Positions 8,186 to 61,308 are shown, counted from the stretch's first letter. The stretch: 64,000 nucleotides of DNA from Thermoanaerobaculia bacterium (GCA_044869805.1 JBIOXV010000172.1:14715-78714), one strand, 5' to 3'. Notes: generated from the sequence alone by a model not told the origin. Translations and numbers: made by a program.

Positions 8186-8191
8186 GGGTGC

Positions 8192-12014: not shown

Positions 12015-12037
12015 ATTCGGGAATTATAAGGGCGGCG

Positions 12038-14575: not shown

Positions 14576-14589
14576 GATGGGATGCCTTT

Positions 14590-14946: not shown

Positions 14947-15058
14947 GTGCAGGCTCCTAGTGAATGTGCCGGGGCAGGGCGATCACTCTCTGGTGACGGC
15001 GAAACCCCGACAAAGGACGCGGTCTCGCCGGAGGTCCTTCTCGCGGCAGGTCCTTTGG

Positions 15059-16156: not shown

Positions 16157-16181
16157 GATTCAGGCGCGTGCGGCGCTGGGG

Positions 16182-25939: not shown

Positions 25940-26013
25940 AGGCGAGCCCCGGCGAGACGAGCGCAAAGGATACTACGGTGCCCGGAGTCACCCCGGCACT
26001 ACAATCGCCGCCG

Positions 26014-36419: not shown

Positions 36420-38057
36420 ATGAGCTCAGTCCCGAACGGAGCCCGCCTCGCTGTGGCCCTCGCGCTCGTCGGAGCGCTGCCGGCCGTCCCCGCCCTCGCG
36501 GCGTCGCCCGACCATCCCGAGGTCAGCTTCGCCGTGCGGCACGACGTCTCACCGCCGCTCGCCCAGCAGCCGATCCGCCGCCCGCGGGCCGGCCAGCCCG
36601 ATCGGCAGATCCCCCTGCGCGTGCCGCTGGACTTGGCGGCCCGGTATCACCCCACCCCGCCCGCCGCGGACCCGCTGCTCGCGGTGAGCGAGACCTTCGC
36701 GGTCGCCACACCCTCTCCGATCCTCACTTTCGAGGGCCTGTCGGACGACGACAACGCCGCCGTCACCGGCGGCCGGATCGTGCCGCCGGACACCCAGGGC
36801 GACGTGGGCCTCACCCAGTACCTCCAGGCGATCAACCTGATCCTCGCCGTCTACAACAAGGCGACCGGGGCCCGCACCTTCGGCCCGGTGACGGTCGCCT
36901 CGCTGTGGGCCGGCTTCGGGGGCGAATGCGAAACCAACAACGACGGCGATCCCATCGTGCTGTACGACGACGCGGCCGACCGTTGGCTGGTGAGCCAGTT
37001 CGCGATCGCCGCCGACGGCCACCAGTGCATCGCCATCTCCACCACCAACAACCCCGCCGGCTCCTATTTCCGCTACGACTTCGTGGTCAGCCCCGACGCC
37101 TTCAACGACTATCCCAAGCTCGGCGTCTGGCCGGACGGCTACTACATGAGCGCCAACGAGTTCGAGACCAACTTCACCGGCGCCATCGCGGTGGCCTTCG
37201 AGCGCAGCAGGATGCTGCTCGGCCAGCCCGCTCAGATGGTGAAGTTCGGGCCTCTCGCCTGTGGCAGCGAGTGCTTCTTTTCCCTCCAGCCCTCTCACTT
37301 CGAGGGCGGCACGGCGCCGCCGGCCGGCGCGCCCAACACCTTCGTGATGGCCTTCGACGACGAAACCTGGGGAACCGGCTCCAACCCGGACGGCTACCGG
37401 ATCTGGGACTTCACCGTCAACTGGACGAGCCCGGGCAGCTCTAGCTTCATCGTCCGTCCACAGGTCAACGCTCCCGAGTTCGACGCCAACCTGTGCAACT
37501 TCTCGCGGAACTGCATCCGCCAGCCCTCGCCAGGCGAGCGCCTGGACCCGCTGGGTCAGTTCACTATGTTCCGGGCTCAGTACCGAAACTTCGGCACCAG
37601 CGAGCGGATCGTCCTCAACCACACGGTGGACGTGGGCAGCAACCGCGCCGGGGTGCGCTGGACCGAGCTGCGCGACAACGGCAGCGGCTGGGTGCTGCAC
37701 CAGACCGGGACCGTCGCACCCGGCTCCGATTCACGCTGGGTGGGCTCGATCGCCATGGACGGTGACGGCAACATCGCGCTCGGCTACAGCGTCTCGAGCC
37801 AGACCGTCAGGCCCTCGATCCGCTACGCCACGCGCTCGGCGGGAGACCCCTTGGGCACCATGGGCGCGGAGGTGACGCTGCAGGCCGGGGCGGGCGTACA
37901 GCGCCAGTCCTTCAACCGCTGGGGCGACTACTCGACGATGAGCGTCGACCCGGCGGACGACTGCACCTTCTGGTACACGCAGGAGTACTACGCCAACAAC
38001 GGCAGCTTCGACTTCAAGACGCGGATCGGCTCGTTCAAGGTGCCGGGCTGTAGCTGA
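36420..38057 (+). CDS. Secreted hypothetical protein, possibly beta-propeller/Asp-box-like
   Basis: A strong Shine-Dalgarno (AAGGAGG) sits 8 nt upstream and a signal peptide is present. The 545-aa ORF has native codon usage. Asp-box-like segments are visible (SIAMDGDGN; WGDYSTMS). I recognised no confident family. Confidence 0.55.
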   Translation: MSSVPNGARLAVALALVGALPAVPALAASPDHPEVSFAVRHDVSPPLAQQPIRRPRAGQPDRQIPLRVPLDLAARYHPTPPAADPLLAVSETFAVATPSPILTFEGLSDDDNAAVTGGRIVPPDTQGDVGLTQYLQAINLILAVYNKATGARTFGPVTVASLWAGFGGECETNNDGDPIVLYDDAADRWLVSQFAIAADGHQCIAISTTNNPAGSYFRYDFVVSPDAFNDYPKLGVWPDGYYMSANEFETNFTGAIAVAFERSRMLLGQPAQMVKFGPLACGSECFFSLQPSHFEGGTAPPAGAPNTFVMAFDDETWGTGSNPDGYRIWDFTVNWTSPGSSSFIVRPQVNAPEFDANLCNFSRNCIRQPSPGERLDPLGQFTMFRAQYRNFGTSERIVLNHTVDVGSNRAGVRWTELRDNGSGWVLHQTGTVAPGSDSRWVGSIAMDGDGNIALGYSVSSQTVRPSIRYATRSAGDPLGTMGAEVTLQAGAGVQRQSFNRWGDYSTMSVDPADDCTFWYTQEYYANNGSFDFKTRIGSFKVPGCS

Positions 38058-39471
38058 GCCCGGCCGATTCCAGCTTCGCCGCCTCCTCCCGCACCACCTG
38101 GTCCGCGGTCAGGCTGGTGCGGGAACTCTTGATGACCGAGAGCTGGTCCAGTAGCCAGGGCGCCGGATCGGCGCCCGTGGCGCGGGCCGTCCTGGCGACG
38201 GCCGCGGCCGCGGCCTTGAGGCAGTTCCTGGGCTCGATGCGATCGAGCTCGTCCCAGAACCAGCCGCAGGAAGAGAACATGCGGTGCCTGAGGCGCTGCG
38301 CCTCGAGGAGATCGCCCAGGCGCGTGACCTCGATGCGCTTGAGCGCGCGCTTCGCAAAGGCGGCCGCCAGCTTGGGCAAGGTCCGCCGGCCGAGTGCCAA
38401 GTCGATCGCGGCCAGCAACAGGCCGTGCGGGTCGTCCACCAGCTCGCCGGCGGCCTGCTGGTAGGCGCGATCGAGATCGACCGCCAAGGCGTTGAGCGCG
38501 GCGCGCAGCGGCGCCTTCCAGTGCGCCTGCGGGGTGCAGTGGCAGAGGTCGCTCCAGCGCGCCACGCCATGGTGACAGCTCCAGGAGCTGGGCTCGACCA
38601 CCTCCATCGACTGGCGCGGCGGGTGCGCGTCGAGGAAGCGGGCGAGGTTGGTGACCTCGAAGCCAGCACGCGACGCGGAGCTCCTCAGCAGGCGGCGCAG
38701 GAAGAGCTGGCGGTCCTTCTGATGGTGGCCGTAGAGCTCGCCGTCGGTGGCGATGAGCAGCAGCCGGTCCTCGCCCTCGGGCTCGAGCCGGGCGCCCAGG
38801 GGCTTGAGCTGCTCGCGGGCGAAGCGGTCGGCGTTGGTGGTGGCGCTGGGGTCGAAGGAGATGCGGCCCGAGAGGCTGCGCACGAAGAAGAAGGCGGCGA
38901 GGCGCCGGCCCTGGGGAAGCTCCACCCAGTAGGGCCGCGTGGGGTCGAGGGTCTGGGTCTTCGCCTGCCAGGGGGCGAGGACCGTGAATTCGATCCCTTG
39001 CTCGGCCGCCACCGCCAGCGTCTCGCGGTCGGCCGCCGTCTCCGGCAGCCACAGGCCGCGGGGCTTCCGACCGAAGCGCCGCTCGAAGTCGGCAACTCCC
39101 CAGGCGATCTCGAGCTCCTTCTCGGCCCGGGTGGCGAGCGGCAGGATGGTGTGGTGGTAGCTCTGGGCGAGCGCTCCGCCGGTGCCCGAGCGGCCGGCTC
39201 CAGATCGCCGGGCGCTCGCCTTGTCGGCGGCGACGATCTTCTTGTGCACGGCGGGGGCCGCGCGCGCCATCCAGGCGAGCAGAGTGGGGCCGAAGTCGAA
39301 GGACAGCAGCTCGTAGTTGCCGGCCTCGGCGTTCGGCCGGTAGCACTCGGCGGTGATCTTCTCGTTGAAGTTGGGATAGGGATCGGCGCCGGGCTCTTCC
39401 GGGATCTCGCCGCTCGCCGGGTCGTCGCGCGGAGGTTGGTAGAAGTGGCCGTGGACGGCGAGGAAGGTCAC
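38035..39471 (-). CDS. Glycoside hydrolase family 57-like protein with a DUF3536 C-terminal region
   Basis: The N-terminus (V)TFLAVHGHFYQPPRDDPASGEI...NFNEKITAECYRPNAEA is characteristic of GH57/DUF3536 proteins. A GTG start at 39469-39471 is inferred. The remaining 673 aa of the 1151-aa track ORF upstream are spurious. Confidence 0.8.
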   Translation of the reverse strand: MTFLAVHGHFYQPPRDDPASGEIPEEPGADPYPNFNEKITAECYRPNAEAGNYELLSFDFGPTLLAWMARAAPAVHKKIVAADKASARRSGAGRSGTGGALAQSYHHTILPLATRAEKELEIAWGVADFERRFGRKPRGLWLPETAADRETLAVAAEQGIEFTVLAPWQAKTQTLDPTRPYWVELPQGRRLAAFFFVRSLSGRISFDPSATTNADRFAREQLKPLGARLEPEGEDRLLLIATDGELYGHHQKDRQLFLRRLLRSSASRAGFEVTNLARFLDAHPPRQSMEVVEPSSWSCHHGVARWSDLCHCTPQAHWKAPLRAALNALAVDLDRAYQQAAGELVDDPHGLLLAAIDLALGRRTLPKLAAAFAKRALKRIEVTRLGDLLEAQRLRHRMFSSCGWFWDELDRIEPRNCLKAAAAAVARTARATGADPAPWLLDQLSVIKSSRTSLTADQVVREEAAKLESAGLSYSPAP

Positions 39472-40688
39472 GCCGCCCGTACCTTGACTCGCTCCCCCAC
39501 CAGCTCGAGCAGGCGCTTGAGCTCGTCGTAATCCGGGTAGCGCAGCCGCACCCAGGCGTTGGCCATGTAGCCCGCCTCCACCGGCTGGGTACGCGAGCCC
39601 ACCGGTGGAAAGTGATAGTCGATGATCCACTCCGCGAGCTCGTGCTCCATCTCCTCGACGCCCTCGTAGGCGACGATCCGCCCGTCGCGGTCCGGCCGCA
39701 GGTTGACGATGCCGGCCGAGAAGCGCCGGCTGGGCACCTGGGTGGTGTGGCCGTGGACGATCGCCGCCGCCCACTCGCGGTAGACGTCCATCTCGTTGGC
39801 GGCGCAGTAGAGGTCCCAGGCGCCCACCCCCGGCGGCCGGCAGCCGATCTCCGAGAACTTGAGGCCCTTGTTGCCGAAGAACCACTCCATGTGGGTGGCC
39901 GAGGTGCCGATCGAGAGCGCCGCGATCACCTGCGTCCCCAGCCGCTTGACCTCGTCGTACCCTGAAGAGTCGATGCGGTTGGTGGCGATGAACATCGGCG
40001 AGACGTGGCGCTCGCGCATCGCGGTCAGCACCCGCGGGTAGTAGTGGGTGATGAACTCGTGGCCTACCTCGCCGCCGGCGGTGATGGTGTCGTAGAAGCC
40101 CTCGTGCCCGTCGATGAACTCCTCGACGGCGACCGAGGCGCCGCGCTCGAAGCCCTGCTCGGCAATCGCCGCCTCGAGCTCGCGCGCGTCGTCGGCGCGC
40201 GTGGTGCCGGCGGCGCCGGCGCCGCTCCTCGGCTTCAAGATCACGGGGAAGCCGACGCGCGCCGCGAAGTCGCGCACCTCCGCGGCCGAGGAAGCCGCCG
40301 CCGACTGCGCGCAGGGGATGCCCTGCTCGCGCAGGAACTCCTTCATCGCCGGCTTGTCGCGGCAGAGGTAGGTGGTCTGGACCGAGGTGCCGGGGATGCC
40401 GCAGGCCTCGCGCACATGCGCCGCGGTCATCACGTGCGCCTCGATGGTGGCTTCGAGGCGATCCACCCAGCCGCGCCGCTGCACGTTGCGCACCGCCTCG
40501 AGCAGGGACTCCTCGTGTACCACCGAGGAGACCTCCTCGTAGTCGTGCAGCATTCGCCTGAGATCGGACGGCAGGGCCGAGGCCGGCACCTCGCCGATCG
40601 CCGTCACCTTGGCCCCCACCTCGGCCAGGCCGCGCACGAACTTGCGCTGGTTGAAGGGGAAGGCGGGCTCCACGAAGACCACGTGCAT
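39468..40688 (-). CDS. ATP-grasp domain ligase (paralog 1 of 3)
   Basis: MHVVFVEPAFPF is the N-terminus. A central ATP-grasp fold (VILKPRSGAGAAG, HMEWFF, EIGCRPPG) is present. Its stop overlaps the GH57 GTG start (GTGA). Confidence 0.75.
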   Translation of the reverse strand: MHVVFVEPAFPFNQRKFVRGLAEVGAKVTAIGEVPASALPSDLRRMLHDYEEVSSVVHEESLLEAVRNVQRRGWVDRLEATIEAHVMTAAHVREACGIPGTSVQTTYLCRDKPAMKEFLREQGIPCAQSAAASSAAEVRDFAARVGFPVILKPRSGAGAAGTTRADDARELEAAIAEQGFERGASVAVEEFIDGHEGFYDTITAGGEVGHEFITHYYPRVLTAMRERHVSPMFIATNRIDSSGYDEVKRLGTQVIAALSIGTSATHMEWFFGNKGLKFSEIGCRPPGVGAWDLYCAANEMDVYREWAAAIVHGHTTQVPSRRFSAGIVNLRPDRDGRIVAYEGVEEMEHELAEWIIDYHFPPVGSRTQPVEAGYMANAWVRLRYPDYDELKRLLELVGERVKVRAA

Positions 40689-40731
40689 GCGGGTTCTCCA
40701 AAGCCGGGAACGCGGGGATAATACACCGCCT

Positions 40732-41682
40732 ATGGCGAGGGCTATCGTTCTTCTGGGGCCGCAGCGGCTGCAGCCGACGCTGGTATCGGTGTGCGACGAG
40801 ATGGGCCTTCGGGGTCCCATCGCGGCGGTCACCGCCGGCTGGCAGGAGCGCGAGGCCGAGGTCGAGGAGATGCGGGCGCATCTCAATCGCCCGGTGGTCA
40901 ACCTGATGCTCCACGAGCGGGGCGAGAAGCTCTTCGCCGCCGATCCCAGGCTGGCCGAGAAGTACCGCGAGCGGCAGGACCGCCTGCGCGACCTGCAAGC
41001 GCTCTACCGCCTGCGCCTGGCCCACGCCCTGGCCGCGGCGCGCGAGGTGATGAGCCGCGCCGCCGCTTCGCTTCCCGGGGGCTCGGAGCTGTTCGAGCCC
41101 GAGGTCGAGGCGGCGATCGACGCCGTGCGCGACCTGGACGCGCACCACCTGGCGCGCGTGCGCGAGGTGCACGCGCGCTTCGAGGCCGAGGCGAGGCCCC
41201 TCGAGCGGCCCGCCCTGCTGCGCCACCGGCACGAGCTCGGCCGCCTGCTCGCCGGCTCCACGGCGCTCGCCATCGCCGGCGGCCACGTCGCCGTGCTGCT
41301 CAACCGGCTGCGCCTCTTCGGGGTGCTGGAGCTCGCCGGCGCGCGGCCGATCATCGCCTGGTCGGCCGGCGCCATGGTGCTCGGCGACCGCGTCGTCCTG
41401 TTCCACGACAACCCGCCGCAGGGCGCCGGCAACGCCGAGCTGCTGGAGGCCGGGCTGGGGCTGTTCGCCGACCTGCTGCCCCTGCCGCACGCCGGCAAGC
41501 GCCTAGAGCTCGACGACACCCTGCGCGTCTCGCTCTTCGCCCGTCGCTTCGCCCCCGCCGCCTGCGTGGCCTTGGATCCCCTGGCCCGCGTCTCGCGCCG
41601 CGAGGCCGGCGGCTGGCGGCCGGGCCCCGGCACCCAGGTACTGACCGCCAAGGGAGCCCTGCGGAAGGCCGCTTCGCTATGA
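40732..41682 (+). CDS. Peptidase S51-like protein (peptidase E/cyanophycinase family; class I glutamine-amidotransferase-like fold)
   Basis: RPIIAWSAGAMVLGDRVVLFHD resembles the GxSAG nucleophile region of S51 peptidases, and the protein is about 316 aa. The family call comes from motif recognition only. Confidence 0.5.
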   Translation: MARAIVLLGPQRLQPTLVSVCDEMGLRGPIAAVTAGWQEREAEVEEMRAHLNRPVVNLMLHERGEKLFAADPRLAEKYRERQDRLRDLQALYRLRLAHALAAAREVMSRAAASLPGGSELFEPEVEAAIDAVRDLDAHHLARVREVHARFEAEARPLERPALLRHRHELGRLLAGSTALAIAGGHVAVLLNRLRLFGVLELAGARPIIAWSAGAMVLGDRVVLFHDNPPQGAGNAELLEAGLGLFADLLPLPHAGKRLELDDTLRVSLFARRFAPAACVALDPLARVSRREAGGWRPGPGTQVLTAKGALRKAASL

Positions 41683-42815
41683 GCCTGGCGATCCACGAGC
41701 TGCAGCGCAAGAAGCGCATCACCACCAAGGCGGTCGACGACTTCCTGGCCAAGAACGCCTTCCCGCTGGTCGAGGGGCCGAGCGTGACCTTCGTCTATCG
41801 CGGCAAGGCGGACGCCGTGCTGCTCCAGCACTTCATCTACGGGCTGCCCACCTCGCGGCCCTTCAAGCGCATCGACGGCGCCGACCTCTGGTACCTGGTG
41901 ATGGAGCTCCCCGCCAACTCGCGGGTGGAGTACAAGCTGAACGTGGTGAACGGCAAGGATCACCACTGGATCCGCGATCCTTTAAACCCGGTCACCGCCC
42001 GCGACCCGTTCGGCGCCAACTCGGTGGTTCACTCCGCGGGGCACGTGCAGCCGGATTGGACGCTCTTCGACCCGGAGGCCCGCCCCGGCACGATCGAGGA
42101 GCGCGAGATCAAGAGCGAGGCCTTCAAGCGTACCCACGGCTACCGGCTCTACCTGCCGGCACGCTTCAGGACTACCCGGCGCTACCCGCTCCTCGTCCTC
42201 CACGACGGCGACGACTACCTGCGCTTCGCCTCCCTCCAGACGGTGCTCGACAACCTGATCCACCGCATGGAGGTGGCGCCGATCATCGTCGCGCTGATCT
42301 CTTCGCGCGAGCGCCTGACCGAGTACGCGGACGACCCGCGCCACGCGCGCTTCGTGGCCGAGGAGCTGCTGCCCCAGCTCGACCGTACCCTGCCCCTGGA
42401 GCCCTCCCCGGCGGCCCGCGGCCTCGCCGGAGCGAGCTTCGGCGCCGTGGCGTCGCTGGCCACCGCCTGGCGCTACTCCGGGCGCTTCGGCAGGCTGCTC
42501 CTGCAGTCGGGCTCCTTCGCCTTCACCGACATCGGCCACCACAAGCGGGGCCCGGCCTTCGACCCGGTGGTCAAGTTCGTCAACGCCTTCCGCGATCAGC
42601 CGGGGCGGCCGACGGAGAAGGTCTTCGTCTCCTGCGGCACCTACGAGTCGCTGATCTACGAGAACCGCTCGCTCGTCCCGCTGCTGCAGGCCACCGGCAT
42701 GGAGGTCCGCTACGTGGAGGCGCGCGACGGCCACAACTGGGAGAACTGGCGCGACCGCCTGCGCGAGGGCCTCTCGTGGCTGTTCCCCGGGCCACTGTGG
42801 ATGGTGTATGAGTAG
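41679..42815 (+). CDS. Esterase-family alpha/beta hydrolase (PF00756-like) with an N-terminal Ig-like/CBM48-like domain
   Basis: The N-terminal beta domain (VTFVYRGKADAVLLQHF...WYLVMELPANSRVEYKLNV) resembles the enterochelin-esterase N-domain and CBM48. The catalytic region LAGASFGA is present. Its ATG overlaps the preceding stop (ATGA). Confidence 0.7.
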   Translation: MSLAIHELQRKKRITTKAVDDFLAKNAFPLVEGPSVTFVYRGKADAVLLQHFIYGLPTSRPFKRIDGADLWYLVMELPANSRVEYKLNVVNGKDHHWIRDPLNPVTARDPFGANSVVHSAGHVQPDWTLFDPEARPGTIEEREIKSEAFKRTHGYRLYLPARFRTTRRYPLLVLHDGDDYLRFASLQTVLDNLIHRMEVAPIIVALISSRERLTEYADDPRHARFVAEELLPQLDRTLPLEPSPAARGLAGASFGAVASLATAWRYSGRFGRLLLQSGSFAFTDIGHHKRGPAFDPVVKFVNAFRDQPGRPTEKVFVSCGTYESLIYENRSLVPLLQATGMEVRYVEARDGHNWENWRDRLREGLSWLFPGPLWMVYE

Positions 42816-42840
42816 ACCACCTACCGACGAAAGGTAAACC

Positions 42841-44112
42841 ATGGCCACCGTCACCAAGAAGATCGGGCTCTCCCTGGGCGCAGACCTCTGCTGGCCCCTG
42901 TGCTACGAGGAGATCGTCAAGCAGCTCGAGCTGGCGGTGCCGATCGACGGGCACACGGTCGGCGTCGAAGTCGAACGGGTCACTATCGAGCCCTTCAACC
43001 TGCGCCAGCCGGTGAAGTACGACTTGGTGCTCGATCGGCTCACCCACTGGTACCACACCAGCCGCGAGTGGATCAAAAAAGCGGTGCTGATGAACGACCT
43101 CTACGTGCTCAACAACCCGTGGGCCATCCAGTCTATGGAGAAGCACACCACCTACTGCGCCATGATGCGCCTCGGCTTCCCGATCCCCGAGACCTGGATG
43201 CTGCCGCCCAAGGAGTACGAGCCCTCCGACGACCTGCAGGTCACGCTCGAGCGCTACGCGCGGCTCTTCAGCCTGTCCTCGATCGGCGACGAGGTCGGAT
43301 ACCCGATGTTCATGAAGCCGTTCGACGGCGGCGCCTGGAAGGGGGTGCAGCGCATCGAGGACGCCGCCGCCCTGCGCGCGGCCTACGAAGGCAGCGGCAA
43401 GAACATCATGCACCTGCAGAAGGCGGTGGAGGGCTTCGACCTCTTCGTGCGCGGCATCGGCATCGGGCCGCAGGTGCGCTGCGTGCGTTACAACCCGTCG
43501 GCGCCGCTCCATGCGCGCTACGAGGTGGCCTTCAACTTCCTGACCGGCGAGGAGGCCTCCTACCTGCGCGACCAGACGCTGACCATCAACACCTTCTTCG
43601 GCTGGGACTTCAACTCCTGCGAGTCGCTGCGCCAGGGCGGGGTCTTCTACCCTATCGACTTCGCCAACGCCTGCCCCGACTCGCAGGTGACCTCGCTGCA
43701 CTTCCATTTCCCTTGGCTGGTCAAGGCGCAGGTGCGCTGGAGCCTGTTCTGCGCCCTGACCGATCGCAAGATGCGCAAGAACCTGGACTGGGAGCCGTAC
43801 TACCTGATCGCCGACCGCGACGACCTCTCCTTCCGAGAGAAGCTCGCCGCCTACGCCCAGATCGCCGACCAGCGCCTGGACACCGAGCGCTTCCAGGACT
43901 TCTGCAACCGCAATTTGGCGCACCTCGACGAGGTGTCGTGGGAGTTCTTCGGCACCGGCACCGCCAAGGAGGCAGTGCGCAGCAAGGTGGCCGCCCTCTT
44001 CCCGGAGCACGAGATCGAAGAGTTCACCGAGCACTTCTGGGGCCTGATCCAGTTCTGGCGCAAGACCGAGTCCGACCGCATCGGCACGGGGCGAGGGGAG
44101 GAGACGGCGTAG
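42841..44112 (+). CDS. Distinct ATP-grasp-like ligase (RimK/GshB-like fold), family unassigned
   Basis: GYPMFMKPFDGGAWKGV is a K-P ATP-binding loop, and a C-terminal YPIDFANACP segment is Mg-site-like. The composition is unusually rich in aromatic residues and Lys and poor in Ala and Arg for this genome. Confidence 0.55.
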   Translation: MATVTKKIGLSLGADLCWPLCYEEIVKQLELAVPIDGHTVGVEVERVTIEPFNLRQPVKYDLVLDRLTHWYHTSREWIKKAVLMNDLYVLNNPWAIQSMEKHTTYCAMMRLGFPIPETWMLPPKEYEPSDDLQVTLERYARLFSLSSIGDEVGYPMFMKPFDGGAWKGVQRIEDAAALRAAYEGSGKNIMHLQKAVEGFDLFVRGIGIGPQVRCVRYNPSAPLHARYEVAFNFLTGEEASYLRDQTLTINTFFGWDFNSCESLRQGGVFYPIDFANACPDSQVTSLHFHFPWLVKAQVRWSLFCALTDRKMRKNLDWEPYYLIADRDDLSFREKLAAYAQIADQRLDTERFQDFCNRNLAHLDEVSWEFFGTGTAKEAVRSKVAALFPEHEIEEFTEHFWGLIQFWRKTESDRIGTGRGEETA

Positions 44113-44167
44113 GTCGACCTTTCCAAGCTCGCCCGCCTTCGCACTCTGCGACTGGAGACACTTGCCT

Positions 44168-47167: not shown

Positions 47168-47177
47168 CCGCCGGCCG

Positions 47178-47489
47178 TTACTCGGTCATCCGGCTGCGCC
47201 GGGCCCGATTCTCCAGCATCTCCAGGAACCACGCCTCGGGGGTCGCCACGTCGCGCCAGCGGTAGATCAGCATCGCCACCACGTCGGCGAGGATCACGGC
47301 GGCGGTGTCGGGGTGCACGCCGTAGCGCTGAAACATCTCGATGATGCGCGGCTCGAGGCGCGCGACCAGGGCCTGGATCTCCTTCCACTGACCCGGCTCG
47401 CCGTCCTCTCCGCCGCCGTCATCACCGTCCGACATGGCTTCATTATCTACGCGGTCAAGACCGGCCCCCAGGATACGCGGCCGGCGCAC
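47178..47489 (-). CDS. Small hypothetical protein with an acidic N-terminus, downstream of glgA
   Basis: A 103-aa ORF (or 85 aa from MSDGDDGG). It lies 39 bp downstream of glgA on the same strand. No family was recognised. Confidence 0.3.
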   Translation of the reverse strand: MRRPRILGAGLDRVDNEAMSDGDDGGGEDGEPGQWKEIQALVARLEPRIIEMFQRYGVHPDTAAVILADVVAMLIYRWRDVATPEAWFLEMLENRARRSRMTE

Positions 47490-47528
47490 GCCGGGATTAC
47501 CGCCCGGCGTAACGCGCCCGGGGCGAGA

Positions 47529-49043
47529 TCAGAAGTGCCCCGCCAGGAGCGCCTCGTACAGTGCCACGTAGCGCTCGATCTGCGACTCCCAGGAGAAGTC
47601 CCGGCTCATGCCGGCGAGCATCAATCGCCGCCAGGCCTCGCGATCCTGGTAGAGGTCGAGCGCCTGGTTCACGGCCCACGCCAGGCCCTCGGGCGTGAAG
47701 TGCTCGAATACGAAGCCGGTGCCACTGCCGTCCCCGGGGTCGAAGGGCTCCACCGTGTCGGCGAGGCCGCCGGTCTTGCGCACCACGGGCGGCGTGCCGT
47801 AGCGCTGGCTGTACATCTGGTTCAAGCCGCAGGGCTCGTAGAGCGAGGGCATGAGGAAGATATCGGCGCCCGCCTCGATCAGATGGGCCAGCGGCTCGCT
47901 GTAACCGCGGTAGAAGACCACGCGGTCGGGGAAGCCGTGCTGCAGCCCGGCGAAGAACTCCTCGTACTTGCGCTCGCCGTTGCCGAGCACCACCAGGCGG
48001 GCGTTGCGTCGCGCCAGCAGGCCCGGCAGGACCTCGAAGAACAGGTCGAAGCCCTTCTGCGCGGTGAGGCGCGACACCACGCCCAAGAGTGGCACCCGCT
48101 CCTCGGCGGCCGAGCCGGGAGCGGCGAGCCCCAGGGAGGCCAGCCCCAGAGAAGCTAGCAAATCGGCCTTGTTGGCGGCCTTGCCGGAGAGGTCGGCCGC
48201 CGAGTAGGGGTGGGGGATGTGGGGGTCGTTCGCCGGGTCCCACTCCTCGGCGTCGATGCCGTTGACGATCCCCACCAGGTGGTCGCCGCGCGCCCGCAGC
48301 ACGCCCTGGAGCCCCATGCCGTAGCGGTCGGTCTGGATCTCCAGGGCGTGGGTGCGCGACACGGTGGTGATGACCCCGGCATAGAGCAGGCCGGTCTTCA
48401 AGAAGTTGATCCGCCCGGCCGCGAGGTCGTCCTGGTAGAGGTAGGAGGCGACCCCCGCGAGCCCCAGCTCGGGCAGCAGGCCGCTGCCGAACACTCCCTG
48501 GTAGCCCACGTTGTGCAGCGTGAGCACGGTCTTGGTGCCGGCGAACAGGCGGTCCCAGGCGTAGACGGTGCGCAGGTAGAGGGGCATCAAGGCGGTGTGC
48601 CAGTCGTGCGCGTGCACGATGTCCGGTGCCCAGCCCATGCGCTGGCAGCACTCGAGCGCCGCCCGCGACAGGAAGGCGAAGCGCAGCGCCTCGTCCGCGT
48701 CCTGCGTGTAGTAGCCCTCGCGGTCGTAGAGCGCCGGGCAGTGGATGAAGTAGAGCGGCGGCCCGCCGCCGTGGGTGCCGACGCCCGGCAGCGGCGCCGT
48801 GTAGGCGGAGAAGGAGAGGTGGCGGTCGCCCACCGAGATCGGCACGTCGCGCAGGAAGGCGACCGGGAAAAACGAGTGCTGCGAGCGATCGATCTTCGAG
48901 TACAGCGGCAGGAAGGCGCGCACGTCGTGCCCGGCGCGGTCGAGGTAGCGGGCGAGCGAGGCGGCGACATCGCCCAGGCCGCCGGTCTTGGCGAACGGGG
49001 TGAGCTCGGAGCTCGCCTGGCAGATGCGCAGCGGCCGGTCCAC
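47529..49043 (-). CDS. glgA: Glycogen (starch) synthase, ADP-glucose type (GT5)
   Basis: SSELTPFAKTGGLGDV and C-terminal GT-B motifs (LMPSLYEPCGLNQMY) identify it. A GTG start at 49041-49043 is inferred. The upstream 668 aa of the 1172-aa track ORF are a spurious extension. Confidence 0.85.
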   Translation of the reverse strand: MDRPLRICQASSELTPFAKTGGLGDVAASLARYLDRAGHDVRAFLPLYSKIDRSQHSFFPVAFLRDVPISVGDRHLSFSAYTAPLPGVGTHGGGPPLYFIHCPALYDREGYYTQDADEALRFAFLSRAALECCQRMGWAPDIVHAHDWHTALMPLYLRTVYAWDRLFAGTKTVLTLHNVGYQGVFGSGLLPELGLAGVASYLYQDDLAAGRINFLKTGLLYAGVITTVSRTHALEIQTDRYGMGLQGVLRARGDHLVGIVNGIDAEEWDPANDPHIPHPYSAADLSGKAANKADLLASLGLASLGLAAPGSAAEERVPLLGVVSRLTAQKGFDLFFEVLPGLLARRNARLVVLGNGERKYEEFFAGLQHGFPDRVVFYRGYSEPLAHLIEAGADIFLMPSLYEPCGLNQMYSQRYGTPPVVRKTGGLADTVEPFDPGDGSGTGFVFEHFTPEGLAWAVNQALDLYQDREAWRRLMLAGMSRDFSWESQIERYVALYEALLAGHF

Positions 49044-50308
49044 TAGACCTCCGTGCCGTCCGGCACCACCGCCCCGGCCGCCACCACGATGATGCCGTCG
49101 CGGATGCACCAGTTGTCGCCGTCGGCGTGGGTCACGCCGCCCGCGTTGACCAGCTTGACGCCGTTGCCGATGCGCACGTCGCGGTCGAGGATGGCGTGCT
49201 TGATCACGCAGTCGCGGCCGATACCGAGCGGGATGTTGCTGCCCGCCGCCTCGTCGGGCTCGAAGAAGTTGGCGCCCATCACCACGCTGTCCTCGACCAC
49301 CGAGCCGGAGCGGATCACCGAGCGCACCCCGAAGATCGAGCGCTGGATCTCGGCGCCGGTGATGATCGAGCCGTCGCACAGCACCGAGTGGTAGACCCGG
49401 CACTCGTTCACCTTCACCCCGGGCAGGAAGCGCGGGTGGGTGAAGATCGGGTAGTCGGGGCTGTAGAGGTTGAGCGGCGGCACCGGCACCGCGAGCTCCA
49501 GGTTCGAGCTGTGGAAGTTGCCGATGGTGCCGATGTCGCGCCAGTAGCCGTCGTAGCCGAAGGCGTAGATCTTCCGCTCGTGGATCGCCTTGGGGATGAT
49601 CTCTTTGCCGAAGTCGTGGTCGTCGGTGCCCACCAGCAGGTCGCGCAGCAGGCCGGGGCGGAAGACGTAGATGCCCATGCTGGCGAGGAGCGCGTCCTCC
49701 TCGGTTTCGAAGCCGAGCTTCTTCAGCGTGGCGGCGTCGGTAATCAGGCGGTCGAGGACCTCCTTCTCGGTCGGCTTCTCCACGAACTCGATGATGCGGC
49801 CGGCGGAGTTGACGCGCATGATCCCCAGGCCTTTGGCCTGTGACCGGGGCACCGCCTTGACCGCCACCGTCATGTCCGCCTTCTTCTGCCGATGGGTGTC
49901 GACGAAGTTCCTCATCTCCATCAGGTAGAGCTGGTCGCCGGACAGCACCAGCACCTCGGAAGGCTGCAGCAGGAGCAGCCGGTCCAGGTTCTGGCGCACG
50001 GCGTCGGCCGTGCCCTGGTACCAGTCGCGGCGCTCGAGGCCCTGCTCGGCGGCCAGGATGTTGACGAAGCCGCGCGAGAAGACGTCGAAGCGATAGGTCT
50101 GCGCGATGTGCTGGTGCAGGCTCGCCGAGTTGAACTGGGTCAAGACGAAGATGCGGGTGATGCCGGCGTGCAGGGAGTTCGAGATCGGCACGTCGATCAG
50201 CCGAAACTTGCCCCCCACCGGCACCGCCGGCTTGGCCCGGCTCTTGGTGAGCGGCCACAGGCGCGCTCCCTGCCCACCCCCCAGGATCGCGGTGACGACG
50301 TTCCTCAT
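49043..50308 (-). CDS. glgC: Glucose-1-phosphate adenylyltransferase
   Basis: ILGGGQGARLWPLT, KPAVPVGGKFRLIDVPISN and the left-handed beta-helix C-terminus match GlgC. The TAG stop overlaps the glgA start by 1 nt. Confidence 0.9.
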   Translation of the reverse strand: MRNVVTAILGGGQGARLWPLTKSRAKPAVPVGGKFRLIDVPISNSLHAGITRIFVLTQFNSASLHQHIAQTYRFDVFSRGFVNILAAEQGLERRDWYQGTADAVRQNLDRLLLLQPSEVLVLSGDQLYLMEMRNFVDTHRQKKADMTVAVKAVPRSQAKGLGIMRVNSAGRIIEFVEKPTEKEVLDRLITDAATLKKLGFETEEDALLASMGIYVFRPGLLRDLLVGTDDHDFGKEIIPKAIHERKIYAFGYDGYWRDIGTIGNFHSSNLELAVPVPPLNLYSPDYPIFTHPRFLPGVKVNECRVYHSVLCDGSIITGAEIQRSIFGVRSVIRSGSVVEDSVVMGANFFEPDEAAGSNIPLGIGRDCVIKHAILDRDVRIGNGVKLVNAGGVTHADGDNWCIRDGIIVVAAGAVVPDGTEV

Positions 50309-50397
50309 CGGCGCCCCTCTCTTGAAGCCAAGCCTCTGAGGTGGCAGATCTTACTCGCACTCGCCCGCCCGGCCCAAGGCCGCTATACTCCCCGCCC

Positions 50398-51618
50398 GTG
50401 CCGCACGTCGTCTTCGTAGCGCCGTTCCTGATGCCGGCCACGGCGCGCTTCGCGCAGGCCACGGCGAGCCTGCCGGGGGTCAAGGTCGGGCTCATCACCC
50501 AGGACCCGGCGGCCAAGATCCCGCCTTCGCTCGCCGCCTCGATCGCCGCCCACCGGCGGGTGGAGAACGCTTTCGACCCGGTGCGCTTGGCCGATGCGGC
50601 CCGCGACCTCGCGCGCTCGATCGGCGGCCTCGACCGGCTGATGGGGGCCCTGGAGCAGCTCCAGGTGCCGCTCGCCCAGGCGCGCGAGATCCTGGGGGTC
50701 GAGGGCATGCGGGTAGAGGCGGCGAAGAACTTCCGCGACAAGGCGCGCATGAAGACCGTGCTGCGGGAGGCCGGCCTGCCCTGCGCCCGCCACCGGCTGG
50801 CGGCTTCCGCCGAGGAGGCGCGCGACTTCGCGCGCGAGGTCGGCCTGCCGCTGGTGGTCAAGCCCCCGGACGGCGCGGGCGCCAAGGCCACCTTCAGGGT
50901 GGGCACGCCCGAGGCGCTGGAGGAGGCCTTGAAGGTCAACGCGCCGGCGCCCGGCCGCCCGGTGCTGCTCGAGGAGTTCGTCACCGGCGACGAGTACTCT
51001 TTCGAGACCGTTTCGATCGCCGGCCGGCCGGTGTGGTACTCCTCCACCCGCTACCTGCCGACGCCGCTCGAGGCGATGCACAACCCATGGATTCAGTGGT
51101 GCGTGCTGCTGCCTCGGGAGCGCGAGGACCCGCGCTTCGACGACGTCAAGGAAGTGGCTTTCAAGGGGCTCGCGGCGCTGGGCATGGGCACCGGCCTCTC
51201 GCACATGGAGTGGTTTCGGCGCCGCGACGGCTCGCTCGCCATCTCCGAGGTCGCCGCCCGCCCTCCGGGCGCGCAGATCACCACCCTGGTTTCGGTGGCG
51301 CACGAGTTCGACTTCCTCGCCGCCTGGGCACGCCTCATGGTGTTCAGCGAGTTCCATCCGCCGCCGCGCAAGTGGGCCTCCGGCGCCGCCTTCTTCCGCG
51401 GCATGGGCGGGAGCCGCGTCAAGGCCGTGCACGGCCTCGACCAGGCGCAGAAGGAGCTGGGGCCGCTGGTGGTCGAGGCCAAGCTGCCCAAGCCCGGCGC
51501 CCCCAAGTCCGACAGCTACGAGGGCGACGGCTACGCCGTGCTGCGCCACGAGAGCACCGAGACGGTACGGAAGGCGCTGATGCGGCTGGTGGCGCTGGTG
51601 CGCGTCGAATACAACTGA
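50398..51618 (+). CDS. ATP-grasp domain ligase (paralog 2 of 3)
   Basis: (V)PHVVFVAPFLMP, LVVKPPDGAGAKA, HMEWF and EVAARPPG are present. A GTG start at 50398 is chosen by alignment to its paralogs; an alternative ATG lies at 50341. Confidence 0.7.
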   Translation: MPHVVFVAPFLMPATARFAQATASLPGVKVGLITQDPAAKIPPSLAASIAAHRRVENAFDPVRLADAARDLARSIGGLDRLMGALEQLQVPLAQAREILGVEGMRVEAAKNFRDKARMKTVLREAGLPCARHRLAASAEEARDFAREVGLPLVVKPPDGAGAKATFRVGTPEALEEALKVNAPAPGRPVLLEEFVTGDEYSFETVSIAGRPVWYSSTRYLPTPLEAMHNPWIQWCVLLPREREDPRFDDVKEVAFKGLAALGMGTGLSHMEWFRRRDGSLAISEVAARPPGAQITTLVSVAHEFDFLAAWARLMVFSEFHPPPRKWASGAAFFRGMGGSRVKAVHGLDQAQKELGPLVVEAKLPKPGAPKSDSYEGDGYAVLRHESTETVRKALMRLVALVRVEYN

Positions 51619-51628
51619 GATCCCGTCG

Positions 51629-52846
51629 ATGAACGTGGTGATGATCGCTCCGGCCTACCCGTGGGAGATGACCCTCTTCACCCGCGGGCTGGCGCGGGTG
51701 GGCGCCAAGGTGCTCGGCGTGGGGGACACGCCGGCCGCGGGGCTGTCGCCGATGGTGAAGGAGAGCCTCGCCGCCTACCTGCACGTGCCCTCGCTGTGGG
51801 ACGAGGAGGCAGTGATCGAGGCCGTGCGCCGGCACCCGGCGGCGCGCTCGCTCGACCTCGTGGAATGCCTGTGGGAGCCGGGCATGATCCTCGCCGCCCG
51901 GCTGCGCGAGCGGCTGGGCCTGCCCGGCATGACGGTCGCCGAAACCGTTCCCTTCCGCGACAAGGGGCGAATGAAACAGGTGCTCGACGCCGCCGGCATC
52001 CGCACTCCGCGTCACTTCCGCGCCGCGTCGACCCGCGAGGTGCGCGCCGCGGCCGAACGCATCGGCTTCCCGCTGATCGTCAAGCCGATCGCCGGCGCCG
52101 GCTCCAAGGACACCCATCGGGTCGACGACGACGCGGAGCTCGAGCAGGTCATCGCCAAGGTCCGGCACGTCGAGGAGGTGAGCGTCGAGGAGTACATCGA
52201 GGGCGAGGAGCACACTTTCGACACCATCTGTGCCGACGGCGAGATCCGCTATTTCAACCTCGCCTGGTACCGGCCGCGGCCGCTGCTGCAGCGCACCGTC
52301 GAGTGGATCAGCCCGATGACCGTCACCCTGCGGGACGTGTTCCGCGACGACCTCGCACCGGGCCGAGAGATGGGCCAGGCGGTGCTCGAGGCCCTGGGAT
52401 TCAAGACCGGCTTCACCCACATGGAGTGGTTCCTGAAGCCTGACGGCGAGGCGGTGTTCGGCGAGATCGGCGCCCGCCCGCCCGGCGCGCGCTCGACCGA
52501 GCTGATGAACTACGGCTGCGACATCGACGTCTTCACCGGCTGGGCCGAGGCGGTGTGCCACCGGCGATTCAGCCAGAAGGTGGTGCGCCGCTACAACAGC
52601 GCCGTGATCTTCAAGCGCGCCCAGGGCCAGGGCCGCATCCAGCGCATCGAGGGCCTGGAGCGCCTGCTCGGCCGCTTCGGCGAGGCGATCGTCTCCGTCG
52701 ATCTCCTGCCGATCGGCTCGCCGCGCCGCAACTGGCTCCAGACCCTGCTCTCCGACGGCCACGTCATCCTCCGCCACCCGCACCTACCGACCTGCATCGA
52801 GATGGCGGACACGGTGGCCGAGGAGCTGCAGCTCTACGCTGCCTAG
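51629..52846 (+). CDS. ATP-grasp domain ligase (paralog 3 of 3)
   Basis: MNVVMIAPAYPW, LIVKPIAGAGSKD, HMEWF and EIGARPPG are present. It follows paralog 2 after a 10-bp gap. Confidence 0.75.
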   Translation: MNVVMIAPAYPWEMTLFTRGLARVGAKVLGVGDTPAAGLSPMVKESLAAYLHVPSLWDEEAVIEAVRRHPAARSLDLVECLWEPGMILAARLRERLGLPGMTVAETVPFRDKGRMKQVLDAAGIRTPRHFRAASTREVRAAAERIGFPLIVKPIAGAGSKDTHRVDDDAELEQVIAKVRHVEEVSVEEYIEGEEHTFDTICADGEIRYFNLAWYRPRPLLQRTVEWISPMTVTLRDVFRDDLAPGREMGQAVLEALGFKTGFTHMEWFLKPDGEAVFGEIGARPPGARSTELMNYGCDIDVFTGWAEAVCHRRFSQKVVRRYNSAVIFKRAQGQGRIQRIEGLERLLGRFGEAIVSVDLLPIGSPRRNWLQTLLSDGHVILRHPHLPTCIEMADTVAEELQLYAA

Positions 52847-57789: not shown

Positions 57790-57818
57790 GGCCAAGGCTG
57801 CCCAGCGCGTCGTCAAGG

Positions 57819-58613: not shown

Positions 58614-58617
58614 GGCC

Positions 58618-59217: not shown

Positions 59218-59299
59218 GCGCCGCCAGTCTATTGCTCTGCCGTGACCGGTCTCTGCAAGTGACCCCAACGCTCCCGCGCCCTGGCGCGTCTTAGAGAGC

Positions 59300-61238: not shown

Positions 61239-61308
61239 GGAGCATGTGCGGCGTGGCCCGCGCGGGCGCTACCCAGCCGTGGGGTAGTCTTCGCGCGGAC
61301 CGCCGACC

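What the first reader, a model, noticed from the sequence alone, without database searches (positions are those of the whole stretch)
39468..52846. Three paralogous ATP-grasp proteins share an unusual E-x-G-x-R-P-P-G motif where E-x-N is expected
The three proteins align along their whole length. Their N-termini read HVVFVEPAFPF, HVVFVAPFLMP and NVVMIAPAYPW, and all have a K-P ATP loop (ILKPRSGAGAAG, VVKPPDGAGAKA, IVKPIAGAGSKD) and HMEWF. All three read E-I/V-G/A-x-R-P-P-G (EIGCRPPG, EVAARPPG, EIGARPPG) in the C-terminal metal/substrate region, where most ATP-grasp families have E-x-N. This points to a distinct, internally duplicated subfamily. The two tandem copies at 50398-52846 are only 10 bp apart, which suggests sequential action or a heteromer.
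Basis: seen in the sequence. Interest (0 to 1): 0.6.

Follow-up and report, generated by a model that had tools for sequence, protein, structure and literature searches.

The report
Glycogen-linked triple peptide-ligase gene cluster
Three related ATP-dependent ligases of the L-amino-acid-ligase type, whose 'odd' motif is normal for that type, belong to a gene set that many bacterial phyla keep next to glycogen-synthesis genes; the set also holds a fourth ligase, a cyanophycinase-like hydrolase and esterases, and its product is unknown.

Summary
Three full-length paralogues lie at the stated coordinates: A 39468-40688(-), B 50398-51618(+) and C 51629-52846(+). They share 32-36% identity, every quoted string is present, and B and C are 10 bp apart.

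The motif E-[IV]-[GA]-x-R-P-P-G sits exactly on the E-x-N site of AccC and DdlB. However, loss of the Asn is not peculiar. PurT, PurK and the solved L-amino acid ligases (Lals: BL00235, RizA, RhiM/RhiC type) have S, A or G there too. In Lals the E...E-x-x-x-R-x-x-G residues are the published Mg2+ and carboxylate-binding residues. So these are catalytically intact Lal-type ATP-grasp ligases. They form their own clade, triplicated long ago (A, B and C each 100% bootstrap).

The larger finding is the context. Orthologues (60-71% identical) occur in at least 9 phylum-level groups. They sit in a recurring cluster with a RimK-fold ligase, an S51 (cyanophycinase/PepE-fold) protein, a Fes-like esterase, a second esterase and very often glgA (glgA→A tandem in 32 of 80 loci). 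I found no description of this cluster.

Most likely it is a cytoplasmic, stepwise peptide-building and recycling pathway coupled to glycogen storage. The substrates are unknown.

The parts
39468..40688 (-). ATP-grasp paralogue A (406 aa), Lal-type. Motif EIGCRPPG at 39828-39851.
   Evidence: ORF and start. Pfam ATP-grasp PF02222 with a weak LAL_C2 hit. Orthologues are 60-71% identical in 80 loci. Its stop overlaps the GH57 start in GTGA.
50398..51618 (+). ATP-grasp paralogue B (406 aa, GTG start). Motif EVAARPPG at 51247-51270.
   Evidence: Orthologues of 406 aa sit next to glgC/glgA in L001 and L002.
51629..52846 (+). ATP-grasp paralogue C (405 aa). Motif EIGARPPG at 52463-52486. Lies 10 nt after B.
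   Evidence: Pfam ATPgrasp_N plus ATP-grasp_4. Best solved relatives are Lals: 3VOT at E 1.7e-20, then 4WD3, 30vh and BacD.
40732..41682 (+). S51-fold (cyanophycinase/PepE-like) protein with a ~110-aa helical hairpin insertion. Divergent from A across a 43-bp spacer.
   Evidence: Weak Pfam Peptidase_S51 hit. AF2 model pLDDT 92.8. The top 18 PDB fold hits are all S51. WS211AGAM aligns with PepE Ser120. Found next to A in 56 of 80 loci.
41679..42815 (+). Serine esterase (PF00756) with an Enterochelin_N / E-set N-domain. Its start overlaps the S51 stop (ATGA).
   Evidence: Best PDB hit is enterochelin esterase 2B20 (E 2.7e-15), followed by ferulic acid esterases. Conserved GxSxG Ser (56/56), plus an invariant Asp and His (D350, H352; 56/56 each) in the EARDGHNWENW segment. 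Present in 57 of 80 loci.
42841..44112 (+). Fourth, divergent ATP-grasp protein ('AG4', 423 aa): a RimK-fold core plus a C-terminal helical domain.
   Evidence: No Pfam hit. Weak rimK_fam hit. Profile against PDB gives Ddl at E 7e-5. AF2 pTM 0.82. Best fold hits are RimK 7qyr/7qys/5zct. Present in 47 of 80 loci.
47529..49043 (-). glgA, ADP-glucose glycogen/starch synthase (GT5). Its GTG start overlaps the glgC stop by 1 nt.
   Evidence: TIGR02095 scores 515 against a cutoff of 328, but no equivalog-level GlgA model is passed. Start. Orthologues at 50-58% identity lie directly upstream of A in 32 of 80 loci.
49043..50308 (-). glgC, glucose-1-phosphate adenylyltransferase. Divergent from B across an 89-bp spacer.
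   Evidence: PRK02862 scores 537.3 against a cutoff of 537. The same glgA-glgC / B-C divergent arrangement occurs in L001, L002, L034, L043 and L075.
38035..39471 (-). GH57 + DUF3536 alpha-glucan-active enzyme, translationally coupled to A.
   Evidence: Pfam hits. GTGA overlap with the A stop. This A-GH57 coupling is lineage-specific: only 2 of 80 loci have a GH57 nearby.
44162..47167 (+). M1-family metallopeptidase-like protein with a signal-peptide-like N-terminus. Probably not part of the conserved set.
   Evidence: Pfam Peptidase_M1. N-terminus. No orthologue next to the cluster in other loci. It occupies the position where most genomes carry the second esterase.
61288..62901 (+). GH77 4-alpha-glucanotransferase (MalQ). 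Further glycogen-metabolism context.
   Evidence: Pfam Glyco_hydro_77, E 2.9e-165.

Best explanation
A, B and C are catalytically competent ATP-grasp carboxylate ligases of the L-amino-acid-ligase (Lal) branch.

Mechanism, inferred from solved Lals: ATP is bound by the K-P loop and the E-E-x-x-x-G-x-E hinge. H-M-E and the Glu of E-x-[GA]-x-R-P-P-G hold Mg2+. The Arg and Gly of that motif hold the carboxylate of the first substrate while it is turned into an acyl-phosphate. An amine (or possibly a hydroxyl) of a second substrate then attacks it. The missing Asn is the normal state of the Lal/PurT/PurK branch, not a new chemistry.

The three are an ancient triplication. I infer that they perform three different ligation steps of one cytoplasmic pathway. 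The other members of that pathway are a RimK-fold ligase (AG4), an S51-fold hydrolase and one or two esterase-family hydrolases, which I infer trim or recycle the product.

The pathway is genetically coupled to glycogen synthesis (glgA, glgC and other alpha-glucan genes). The most likely product class is an amino-acid-built oligomer or polymer, meaning a cyanophycin-like reserve or a defined peptide, made and degraded in step with glycogen.

Shown: family assignment, intact catalytic residues, the triplication, and the conserved cluster with its link to glgA.
Inferred: stepwise action, product class and the role of the hydrolases.
For: Family and motif:
- Lal structures are the best solved relatives (3VOT at E 1.7e-20).
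- The architecture is Lal-like: ATPgrasp_N, ATP-grasp and LAL_C2.
- The motif aligns to AccC E288/N290/R292 and DdlB E270/N272/G276, and to the PurT and PurK S/A variants.
- RhiC E258/E271 bind Mg2+ and R275/G278 bind the substrate carboxylate, with the same spacing as E268/E280/R284/G287 of A (PMC13579937).
- RDK..MK, K-P, EE..G.E, HxE and E...R..G are invariant or nearly so in 81 A, 47 B and 48 C orthologues.

Triplication:
- A, B and C each have 100% bootstrap, the A+B+C clade 84%, and A+B+C plus Lals against PurT/PurK 99%.

Cluster:
- Among 47 loci of at least 20 kb, EST is present in 40, S51 in 38, AG4 in 35, C in 34, B in 33 and glgA in 29.
- glgA→A are in tandem in 32 of 80 loci.
- A second esterase is present in 44 of 80 loci, and directly follows AG4 in 36 of these.
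- The loci come from Acidobacteriota, Planctomycetota, Myxococcota, Gemmatimonadota, Woeseiaceae, Krumholzibacteriia, Eiseniibacteriota, Dormiibacterota, Acidimicrobiia and SAR324.

Partners:
- AG4 has a RimK fold.
- The S51-like protein matches only S51 peptidases and cyanophycinases.
- EST is closest to Fes and then to carbohydrate ferulic acid esterases.

Precedents:
- Two Lals act in sequence in rhizocticin synthesis.
- Linked peptide ligases commonly perform successive ligations, as in cyanophycin (PMC4431377).
Against: - No substrate or product is known for any member. All named homologues are 'ATP-grasp domain-containing' or 'hypothetical'.
- The cluster has no Mur-ligase-like domain such as CphA has.
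- The S51 'P-H' histidine is kept in only 25 of 37 orthologues, and the Ser is replaced in 2, so hydrolase activity may not be universal.
- Esterases are not expected for a pure polyamide.
- Linkage to glgA could reflect co-regulation only. It is absent from about 40% of loci.
- All three paralogues are within 20 kb in only about two thirds of long loci.
Confidence: 0.55

Rival explanations
1. One reading: the E-x-G/A-x-R-P-P-G motif marks an unusual metal/substrate site that sets these proteins apart from ordinary ATP-grasp enzymes and implies altered chemistry.
For: Asn is indeed absent at the aligned position. HMEWF and RPPG are near-invariant signatures of the clade among the 150 best library representatives.
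Against: The same position is S in PurT and A in PurK, and G, A or A in three solved Lals. It varies freely (N, A, H, S) among more distant Lal-like relatives, for example EVNARLGG, EINGRLIG and ETHTRMGG. Lal catalysis uses the two Glu, the Arg and the Gly without any Asn.
Confidence: 0.07
2. Glucan decoration. The ligases activate amino-acid or peptide carboxylates and transfer them to hydroxyls of glycogen or malto-oligosaccharides made by the adjacent GlgA. This would give an aminoacyl- or peptidyl-esterified alpha-glucan. The two esterases would strip these groups and the S51 protein would process the peptides.
For: Tight and repeatedly reshuffled linkage to glgA (32 of 80 loci in tandem with A), and to glgC, GH57, glgB, glgP, GDE and MalQ. 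There are two PF00756 esterases per cluster. The next-best solved relatives of EST are carbohydrate ferulic acid esterases. Its N-domain is an E-set beta-sandwich with recurrent, individually insignificant CBM_20 starch-binding hits in 7 of 10 orthologues. From general knowledge, ATP-grasp enzymes can form esters (VanA, MdnB/C), and MdnC is among the AG4 fold hits.
Against: No such polymer is known. Lals are amine-directed. The CBM_20 hits are below threshold. The best EST match is Fes, which acts on seryl esters rather than sugar esters. About 40% of loci lack glgA nearby.
Confidence: 0.17
3. Small-molecule product. The ligases assemble a di-, tri- or tetrapeptide-type metabolite, such as a compatible solute, a thiol or cofactor-like peptide, or an antibiotic as made by known Lals. 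The glycogen genes are neighbours only through shared regulation.
For: All characterised Lals make short peptides, and two Lals act in series in rhizocticin synthesis. A GCS2 (glutamate-cysteine-ligase-like) + CBS protein joins the cluster in 11 or more loci. PF00756 also contains thioesterases such as S-formylglutathione hydrolase (general knowledge).
Against: 60-71% identity across phyla and 893 clusters at E<=1e-30 look like core metabolism, not a specialised antibiotic. No exporter, resistance or tailoring genes recur. No homologue closer than 34% identity is on plasmids. Three hydrolases per cluster are many for a small end product.
Confidence: 0.2
4. Protein modification. Like RimK or tubulin-tyrosine ligases, the enzymes add amino acids to a protein (for example GlgA or a granule protein), and the hydrolases remove them.
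For: AG4 has the RimK fold. Linked ATP-grasp ligases have been proposed to act in protein-tagging systems.
Against: A, B and C are closest to free-amino-acid ligases. No conserved small target gene was found in the cluster. Esterases are unexplained.
Confidence: 0.06

Closest known systems
L-amino acid ligases (BL00235 3VOT, RizA 4WD3, RhiM/RhiC, BacD, LdmS)
   Same: Best sequence matches among solved structures. They share the domain order (ATPgrasp_N, ATP-grasp, LAL_C2) and the same Mg2+ and carboxylate residues H-x-E ... E-x-x-x-R-x-x-G without Asn. There is a precedent for two paralogues acting in sequence.
   Different: Only 23-25% identical. A, B and C form a separate clade at 84% bootstrap. 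They occur as a conserved trio in core-like, phylum-spanning clusters with glycogen genes, not in antibiotic gene clusters. Substrates are unknown. HMEWF and R-P-P-G are clade-specific.
PurT / PurK (PF02222 ATP-grasp)
   Same: Best Pfam model for A and B. The Asn is replaced in the same way: E-V-S-P-R-P-H and E-L-A-P-R-V-H.
   Different: 17-20% identity, and an outgroup in the tree at 99%. The scores are far below the family cutoffs. There is no purine-pathway context.
Cyanophycin metabolism (CphA synthetase + CphB S51 cyanophycinase)
   Same: ATP-grasp ligation combined with an S51-fold hydrolase. A cytoplasmic reserve-polymer logic fits the glycogen link.
   Different: No Mur-ligase-like M domain and no CphA-length protein. 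The ligases are Lal and RimK types. The S51 protein has a large helical insertion and a non-universal His. Esterases are present.
RimK (poly-alpha-glutamate ligase)
   Same: AG4's best fold match (E about 4e-7, TM about 0.6 on the target).
   Different: 17% identity. rimK_fam scores 25 bits against a cutoff of 143. AG4 has an extra C-terminal helical domain of about 130 aa and a D-F-A-N-x-C-P-D motif instead of E-x-N-x-S-P-G.
Enterochelin esterase Fes / CE1 ferulic acid esterases
   Same: EST shares the E-set N-domain plus PF00756 catalytic domain and the conserved GxSxG Ser, with an invariant Asp and His nearby.
   Different: 108.9 bits against the Fes cutoff of 222. No siderophore genes are nearby. 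It has no signal peptide, so it is cytoplasmic.

Membership tests
ATP-grasp superfamily | ATP-binding Lys loop, adenine-binding acidic hinge, and two acidic Mg2+ ligands in the C-domain | tested here: met
   Pfam ATP-grasp models pass their cutoffs for A, B and C. K-P, EE..G.E, HxE and E...R are invariant in orthologues.
ATP-grasp superfamily | Canonical E-x-N third metal-site residue | tested here: not met
   Aligned position is G (A), A (B) and G (C) opposite AccC N290 and DdlB N272. The same is true of PurT, PurK and the solved Lals, so this residue is not defining for that branch.
L-amino acid ligase (Lal) family | Closest solved relatives are Lals, and the domain architecture is Lal-like (N-domain, ATP-grasp, C2 domain) | tested here: met
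   3VOT at E 1.7e-20, 4WD3 at 3.5e-13, 30vh at 2.2e-11 and BacD at 5e-9. PF18130 is found in C and a weak PF18603 LAL_C2 hit in A.
L-amino acid ligase (Lal) family | Catalytic set Glu (HxE), Glu-x-x-x-Arg-x-x-Gly as in RhiC E258/E271/R275/G278 | tested here: met
   A has E268, E280, R284 and G287. The residues are invariant in all three groups. Roles are taken from PMC13579937.
L-amino acid ligase (Lal) family | ATP-dependent ligation of two free L-amino acids | not testable with these tools
   Needs enzyme assays.
L-amino acid ligase (Lal) family | Falls inside a characterised Lal subfamily | tested here: not met
   A+B+C form a separate clade at 84% bootstrap, 23-25% identical to solved Lals. 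The BacD equivalog model scores 27-32 bits against a cutoff of 850.
PurT/PurK | Passes the equivalog models | tested here: not met
   PurT scores 31-33 bits against 502, and PurK 30-37 bits against 318.
Cyanophycin synthetase system | CphA architecture (ATP-grasp G domain + Mur-ligase-like M domain) | tested here: not met
   Only about 90-residue ATP-loop matches, at 38-47 bits against cutoffs of 850-877. No Mur-ligase domain occurs in the window cluster or among recurrent neighbours.
Peptidase S51 (PepE / cyanophycinase) | S51 fold | tested here: met
   The top 18 Foldseek PDB hits are all S51, from a model with pLDDT 92.8.
Peptidase S51 (PepE / cyanophycinase) | Ser-His-Glu catalytic triad conserved | tested here: inconclusive
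   The Ser aligns to PepE Ser120 and is kept in 35 of 37 orthologues. The 'P-H' His is present in the window protein but in only 25 of 37 orthologues. The Glu was not mapped. The Pfam score of 21.1 is below the cutoff of 23.9.
RimK family (for AG4) | Passes rimK_fam / RimK Pfam model | tested here: not met
   25.1 bits against 143.4, and no Pfam hit. There is only fold-level similarity.
Enterochelin esterase (for EST) | Passes the Fes equivalog model | tested here: not met
   108.9 bits against 222. PF00756 is passed at 83.6 bits against 22.

The most novel reading that the evidence does not exclude
The cluster encodes an undescribed, phylum-spanning reserve-material pathway in which Lal-type and RimK-type ATP-grasp ligases build amino-acid or peptide units that are physically joined to glycogen. 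The product would be an aminoacyl- or peptidyl-esterified alpha-glucan, a combined carbon and nitrogen store. Dedicated esterases and an S51 hydrolase would mobilise it.
Probability: 0.15. Interest if true: 0.85.

Novelty: new variant of a known kind. Interest (0 to 1): 0.5.

Why it matters
The motif itself is ordinary for the Lal/PurT/PurK branch, so that part of the claim should be dropped.

What remains is a large, strongly conserved enzyme set with no assigned function: 893 clusters (at 50% identity) match the three-paralogue (A/B/C) profile at E<=1e-30, and orthologues of paralogue A are 60-71% identical across phyla. Its members are three Lal-type ligases, a RimK-fold ligase, an S51-fold protein and two esterases. 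The set is repeatedly kept beside glycogen synthase in Acidobacteriota, Planctomycetota, Myxococcota, Gemmatimonadota, Woeseiaceae and other groups.

If it makes a second reserve compound or modifies glycogen, it would add a missing piece to carbon and nitrogen storage in abundant soil and sediment bacteria. It would also supply new peptide-forming biocatalysts. The question is directly testable with recombinant enzymes.

Tried and rejected
- Literature: seven full-text searches combined ATP-grasp or Lal with glycogen synthase, cyanophycinase, S51, GCS2/CBS, Planctomycetes or Myxococcus. None found a description of this cluster.
- The Iyer et al. 2009 amidoligase survey (PMC3268129) is the most likely place for a prior mention, but it is not held. 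Prior description therefore cannot be excluded.
- Cluster-member names gave only 'ATP-grasp domain-containing' or 'hypothetical' proteins from MAGs, with no model organism.
- The promoter and terminator scan of 37.5-53.5 kb gave nothing above shuffles.
- The plasmid collection held only relatives at 34% identity or less, so a mobile-element origin is rejected.
- The GCS2+CBS gene and the second esterase, which recur elsewhere, are absent from the whole window.
- The first tree attempt timed out. The second used a Kimura correction that is invalid at these distances, so its bootstraps were discarded. Poisson distances were used instead.
- Global hhalign against RimK and GshB failed to give a meaningful alignment for A, B and C.
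- A RiPP-like precursor was considered and rejected, because no conserved small ORF turned up among recurrent neighbours.
- I considered that the M1 peptidase belongs to the system. I rejected this because it has a signal-peptide-like N-terminus and no counterpart in other loci.

Full report
**1. What is in the sequence**

The window is about 70% G+C. Its closest protein relatives come from Thermoanaerobaculia (Acidobacteriota) MAGs.

A runs 39468-40688(-), starting at the ATG at 40688. B runs 50398-51618(+), starting at a GTG. C runs 51629-52846(+).

The three proteins align over their whole length at 32-36% identity. Mutual tblastn E-values are 1e-51 to 1e-69. The three motif octapeptides translate from 39828-39851(-), 51247-51270(+) and 52463-52486(+). 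B and C are separated by 10 nt.

**2. Is the motif at the E-x-N site, and is it unusual?**

I fetched E. coli DdlB, PurK, PurT, AccC, GshB and RimK and aligned them to a profile of 176 A, B and C orthologues.

- hhalign places F-S-E-I-G-C-R-P-P-G on AccC F-I-E288-M-N290-T-R292 and on DdlB L-L-E270-A-N272-T-(S)-P-G276. The motif therefore is the E-x-N site, with Asn replaced by Gly or Ala.
- hmmsearch aligns the same segment with PurT 'FSEVSPRPHDTG' and PurK 'INELAPRVHNSG'.
- phmmer against the PDB aligns it with the L-amino acid ligases BL00235 'IEVGARIGGSG', RizA 'GEIAMRIGGGG' and 30vh 'IECASRLSGG'.
- A 2026 structural study of the Lals RhiM and RhiC shows Mg2+ bound by E258 and E271 (E268 and E281 in RhiM). 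The carboxylate of the first substrate is held by R275 and G278. These residues are conserved in BacD, and no Asn is involved (PMC13579937). Paralogue A has E268, E280, R284 and G287 with the same spacing.
- Among more distant Lal-like library representatives the position is N, A, H or S, as in EVNARLGG, EINGRLIG, EIANRAGG and ETHTRMGG.

Loss of the Asn is therefore the normal state of the Lal/PurT/PurK branch. Only the HMEWF and R-P-P-G wording is specific to this clade, where it is near-invariant.

**3. Family placement**

Pfam gives generic ATP-grasp models, plus ATPgrasp_N in C and a weak LAL_C2 hit in A. NCBIfam gives nothing near any cutoff.

In an NJ tree (204 well-occupied columns, Poisson distances, 100 bootstraps) A, B and C are each monophyletic at 100%. 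The A+B+C clade has 84% support and A+C 72%. A+B+C together with the solved Lals separate from PurT and PurK at 99%.

Identities are 31-35% between the paralogue groups, 24-25% to Lals and 17-20% to PurT or PurK. Within groups they are 64% (A), 54% (B) and 55% (C).

All ATP-binding and catalytic residues are conserved in all three groups, so none looks like a dead paralogue.

An exhaustive profile search of 1.84 billion representatives finds 893 clusters at E<=1e-30 and 9951 at E<=1e-10. The best 150 are almost all of A, B or C type. The 'distinct, internally duplicated subfamily' reading is thus right, but for reasons other than the missing Asn.

**4. Surroundings in the window**

- A's stop overlaps the start of a GH57+DUF3536 gene in GTGA.
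- Divergently from A lies an operon: an S51-like gene (40732-41682), an esterase that starts inside the S51 stop (41679-42815), and a fourth, Pfam-silent ATP-grasp-like gene, AG4 (42841-44112).
- An M1-type peptidase with a signal-peptide-like N-terminus follows.
- glgC and glgA, overlapping by 1 nt, run divergently from B-C.
- A GH77 MalQ lies 8 kb further on.

**5. The same set elsewhere**

A scan of one genome per GTDB species returned 80 loci whose A orthologues are 59-71% identical. They carry labels from Acidobacteriota, Planctomycetota, Myxococcota, Gemmatimonadota, Gammaproteobacteria (Woeseiaceae), Krumholzibacteriia, Eiseniibacteriota, Dormiibacterota, Acidimicrobiia, SAR324 and others.

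I ran tblastn with the window's proteins against these loci. Counts below are loci containing each gene.

| Gene | Of 47 loci ≥20 kb |
|---|---|
| EST | 40 |
| S51-like | 38 |
| AG4 | 35 |
| C | 34 |
| B | 33 |
| glgA (≥45% identity) | 29 |
| All six non-glgA genes | 23 |

Across all 80 loci:

- glgA lies directly upstream of A on the same strand in 32.
- B→C are in tandem in 31.
- The order is shuffled between phyla, yet the genes stay together. A common form is C←B← →glgA→A→S51→EST→AG4.
- Clustering the remaining ORFs revealed a second small PF00756 esterase. It is present in 44 of 80 loci, and in 36 of them it directly follows AG4.
- A GCS2 (glutamate-cysteine-ligase family 2) + 2×CBS protein is present in at least 11 loci.
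- glgB, glgP and a debranching enzyme recur in 6-10 loci each.
- Two independent look-ups starting from C homologues show the window's own glgA-glgC / B-C arrangement.
- Neither the second esterase nor the GCS2+CBS gene is in the window.

**6. The partners**

*AG4.* Profile search against the PDB gives Ddl at E 7e-5. The AF2 model has pLDDT 79 and pTM 0.82. Its best Foldseek hits are RimK (7qyr, 7qys, 5zct), then Ddl, ITPK1, MdnC and LysX. It carries an extra helical C-terminal domain.

*S51-like protein.* Its sequence profile barely reaches the PDB. The AF2 model (pLDDT 92.8) matches only S51 peptidases in its top 18 hits, namely 6nqc, pseudo-CphB, dipeptidase E, cyanophycinase and PepE. It has a helical hairpin insertion of about 110 residues. 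Its WS211AGAM aligns with the PepE nucleophile GWS120AGAN. The Ser is kept in 35 of 37 orthologues, but the 'P-H' His in only 25 of 37.

*EST.* It is closest to enterochelin esterase (2B20, E 2.7e-15) and then to ferulic acid esterases. It has a conserved GxSxG Ser and an invariant Asp and His. Its N-domain is an Enterochelin_N/E-set domain with recurrent sub-threshold CBM_20 hits.

*glgA and glgC.* glgA passes the ADP-glucose glycogen/starch synthase subfamily model but no equivalog model. glgC just passes PRK02862.

**7. Interpretation**

Firmly shown:

- These are Lal-type ligases with an intact active site.
- They are an ancient triplication.
- They belong to a conserved, cytoplasmic set of several ligases and several hydrolases that is linked to glycogen genes.

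Inferred:

- Each ligase performs a different acyl-phosphate-mediated ligation in one pathway. The precedents are RhiM then RhiC, and the general observation that linked peptide ligases perform successive ligations.
- The product is an amino-acid-built oligomer or polymer that is turned over by the S51 and esterase proteins in step with glycogen.

The main rivals are amino-acid or peptide esters on the glucan itself, a small peptide metabolite, and protein tagging. They are weighed in the rival-explanations section. The evidence does not settle the substrate.

**8. Novelty**

No paper in the searchable library describes the cluster. The 2009 amidoligase survey could not be read.

As enzymes, these are new members of the Lal kind. 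As a system, a conserved trio together with a RimK-fold ligase, an S51 protein and esterases beside glgA looks like a new variant with unknown chemistry.

What actually sits there is moderately interesting.

Noticed in passing
window 25942-28326 (+): A single ORF fuses a pyridine-nucleotide-disulphide oxidoreductase (Pyr_redox_2) to AIRS/AIRS_C domains. This looks like a SelD-like selenophosphate synthetase fused to a flavoprotein.
   Followed up: no
window 40732-41682 (+), residues ~60-175: The S51-fold protein carries a ~110-residue antiparallel helical hairpin (H72-112, H118-154) that none of the solved S51 peptidases it matches has. It might serve for oligomerisation or for binding a granule.
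   Followed up: partly
L012, L024, L040, L048, L068, L072, L077 and others (e.g. L077:16916-18862): A protein of about 650 aa combines a GCS2 glutamate-cysteine-ligase-like domain with two CBS domains. It follows the second esterase in at least 11 related loci but is absent from this window.
   Followed up: partly
related loci, directly after AG4 (e.g. L055:107-856): A second, ~250-aa PF00756 esterase is present in 44 of 80 loci. In this window an M1 peptidase with a signal-peptide-like N-terminus (44162-47167) sits in that position instead.
   Followed up: partly
window 41679-42100 (esterase N-domain): The N-domains of 7 of 10 esterase orthologues give sub-threshold CBM_20 (starch-binding domain) hits at the same place (E 0.03-0.26). 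This is only a hint that the esterase could bind glucan.
   Followed up: partly
library representatives P0406, P0428: Some A-type representatives depart from the motif. P0406 reads S-E-L-G-L-H-P-P-P, with His in place of the catalytic Arg, so it may be an inactive variant.
   Followed up: no
window 47529-50308 (-): This glgA passes only the subfamily model (515 bits against 328) and none of the 11 equivalog-level GlgA/starch-synthase models listed. Several related genomes carry a second, more distant glgA/glgC/GH57 set near the cluster (L030, L060, L067, L081). The cluster-linked GlgA may therefore be a distinct clade.
   Followed up: partly
window 55168-59565 (-): A large TPR + CHAT-domain protein sits next to an ECF-type sigma factor. 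An analogous TPR-kinase with an ECF sigma lies near the cluster in L002.
   Followed up: no
window 3669-16159 (-): Housekeeping block: type IV pilus genes pilM/N/O and a secretin, then RelA/SpoT, fused SecDF and tRNA-guanine transglycosylase.
   Followed up: no
window 47178-47489 (-): A 103-aa ORF with high GC3 lies just downstream of glgA. It has no Pfam hit, and no gene is called in the equivalent position downstream of glgA in L001 or L002.
   Followed up: partly
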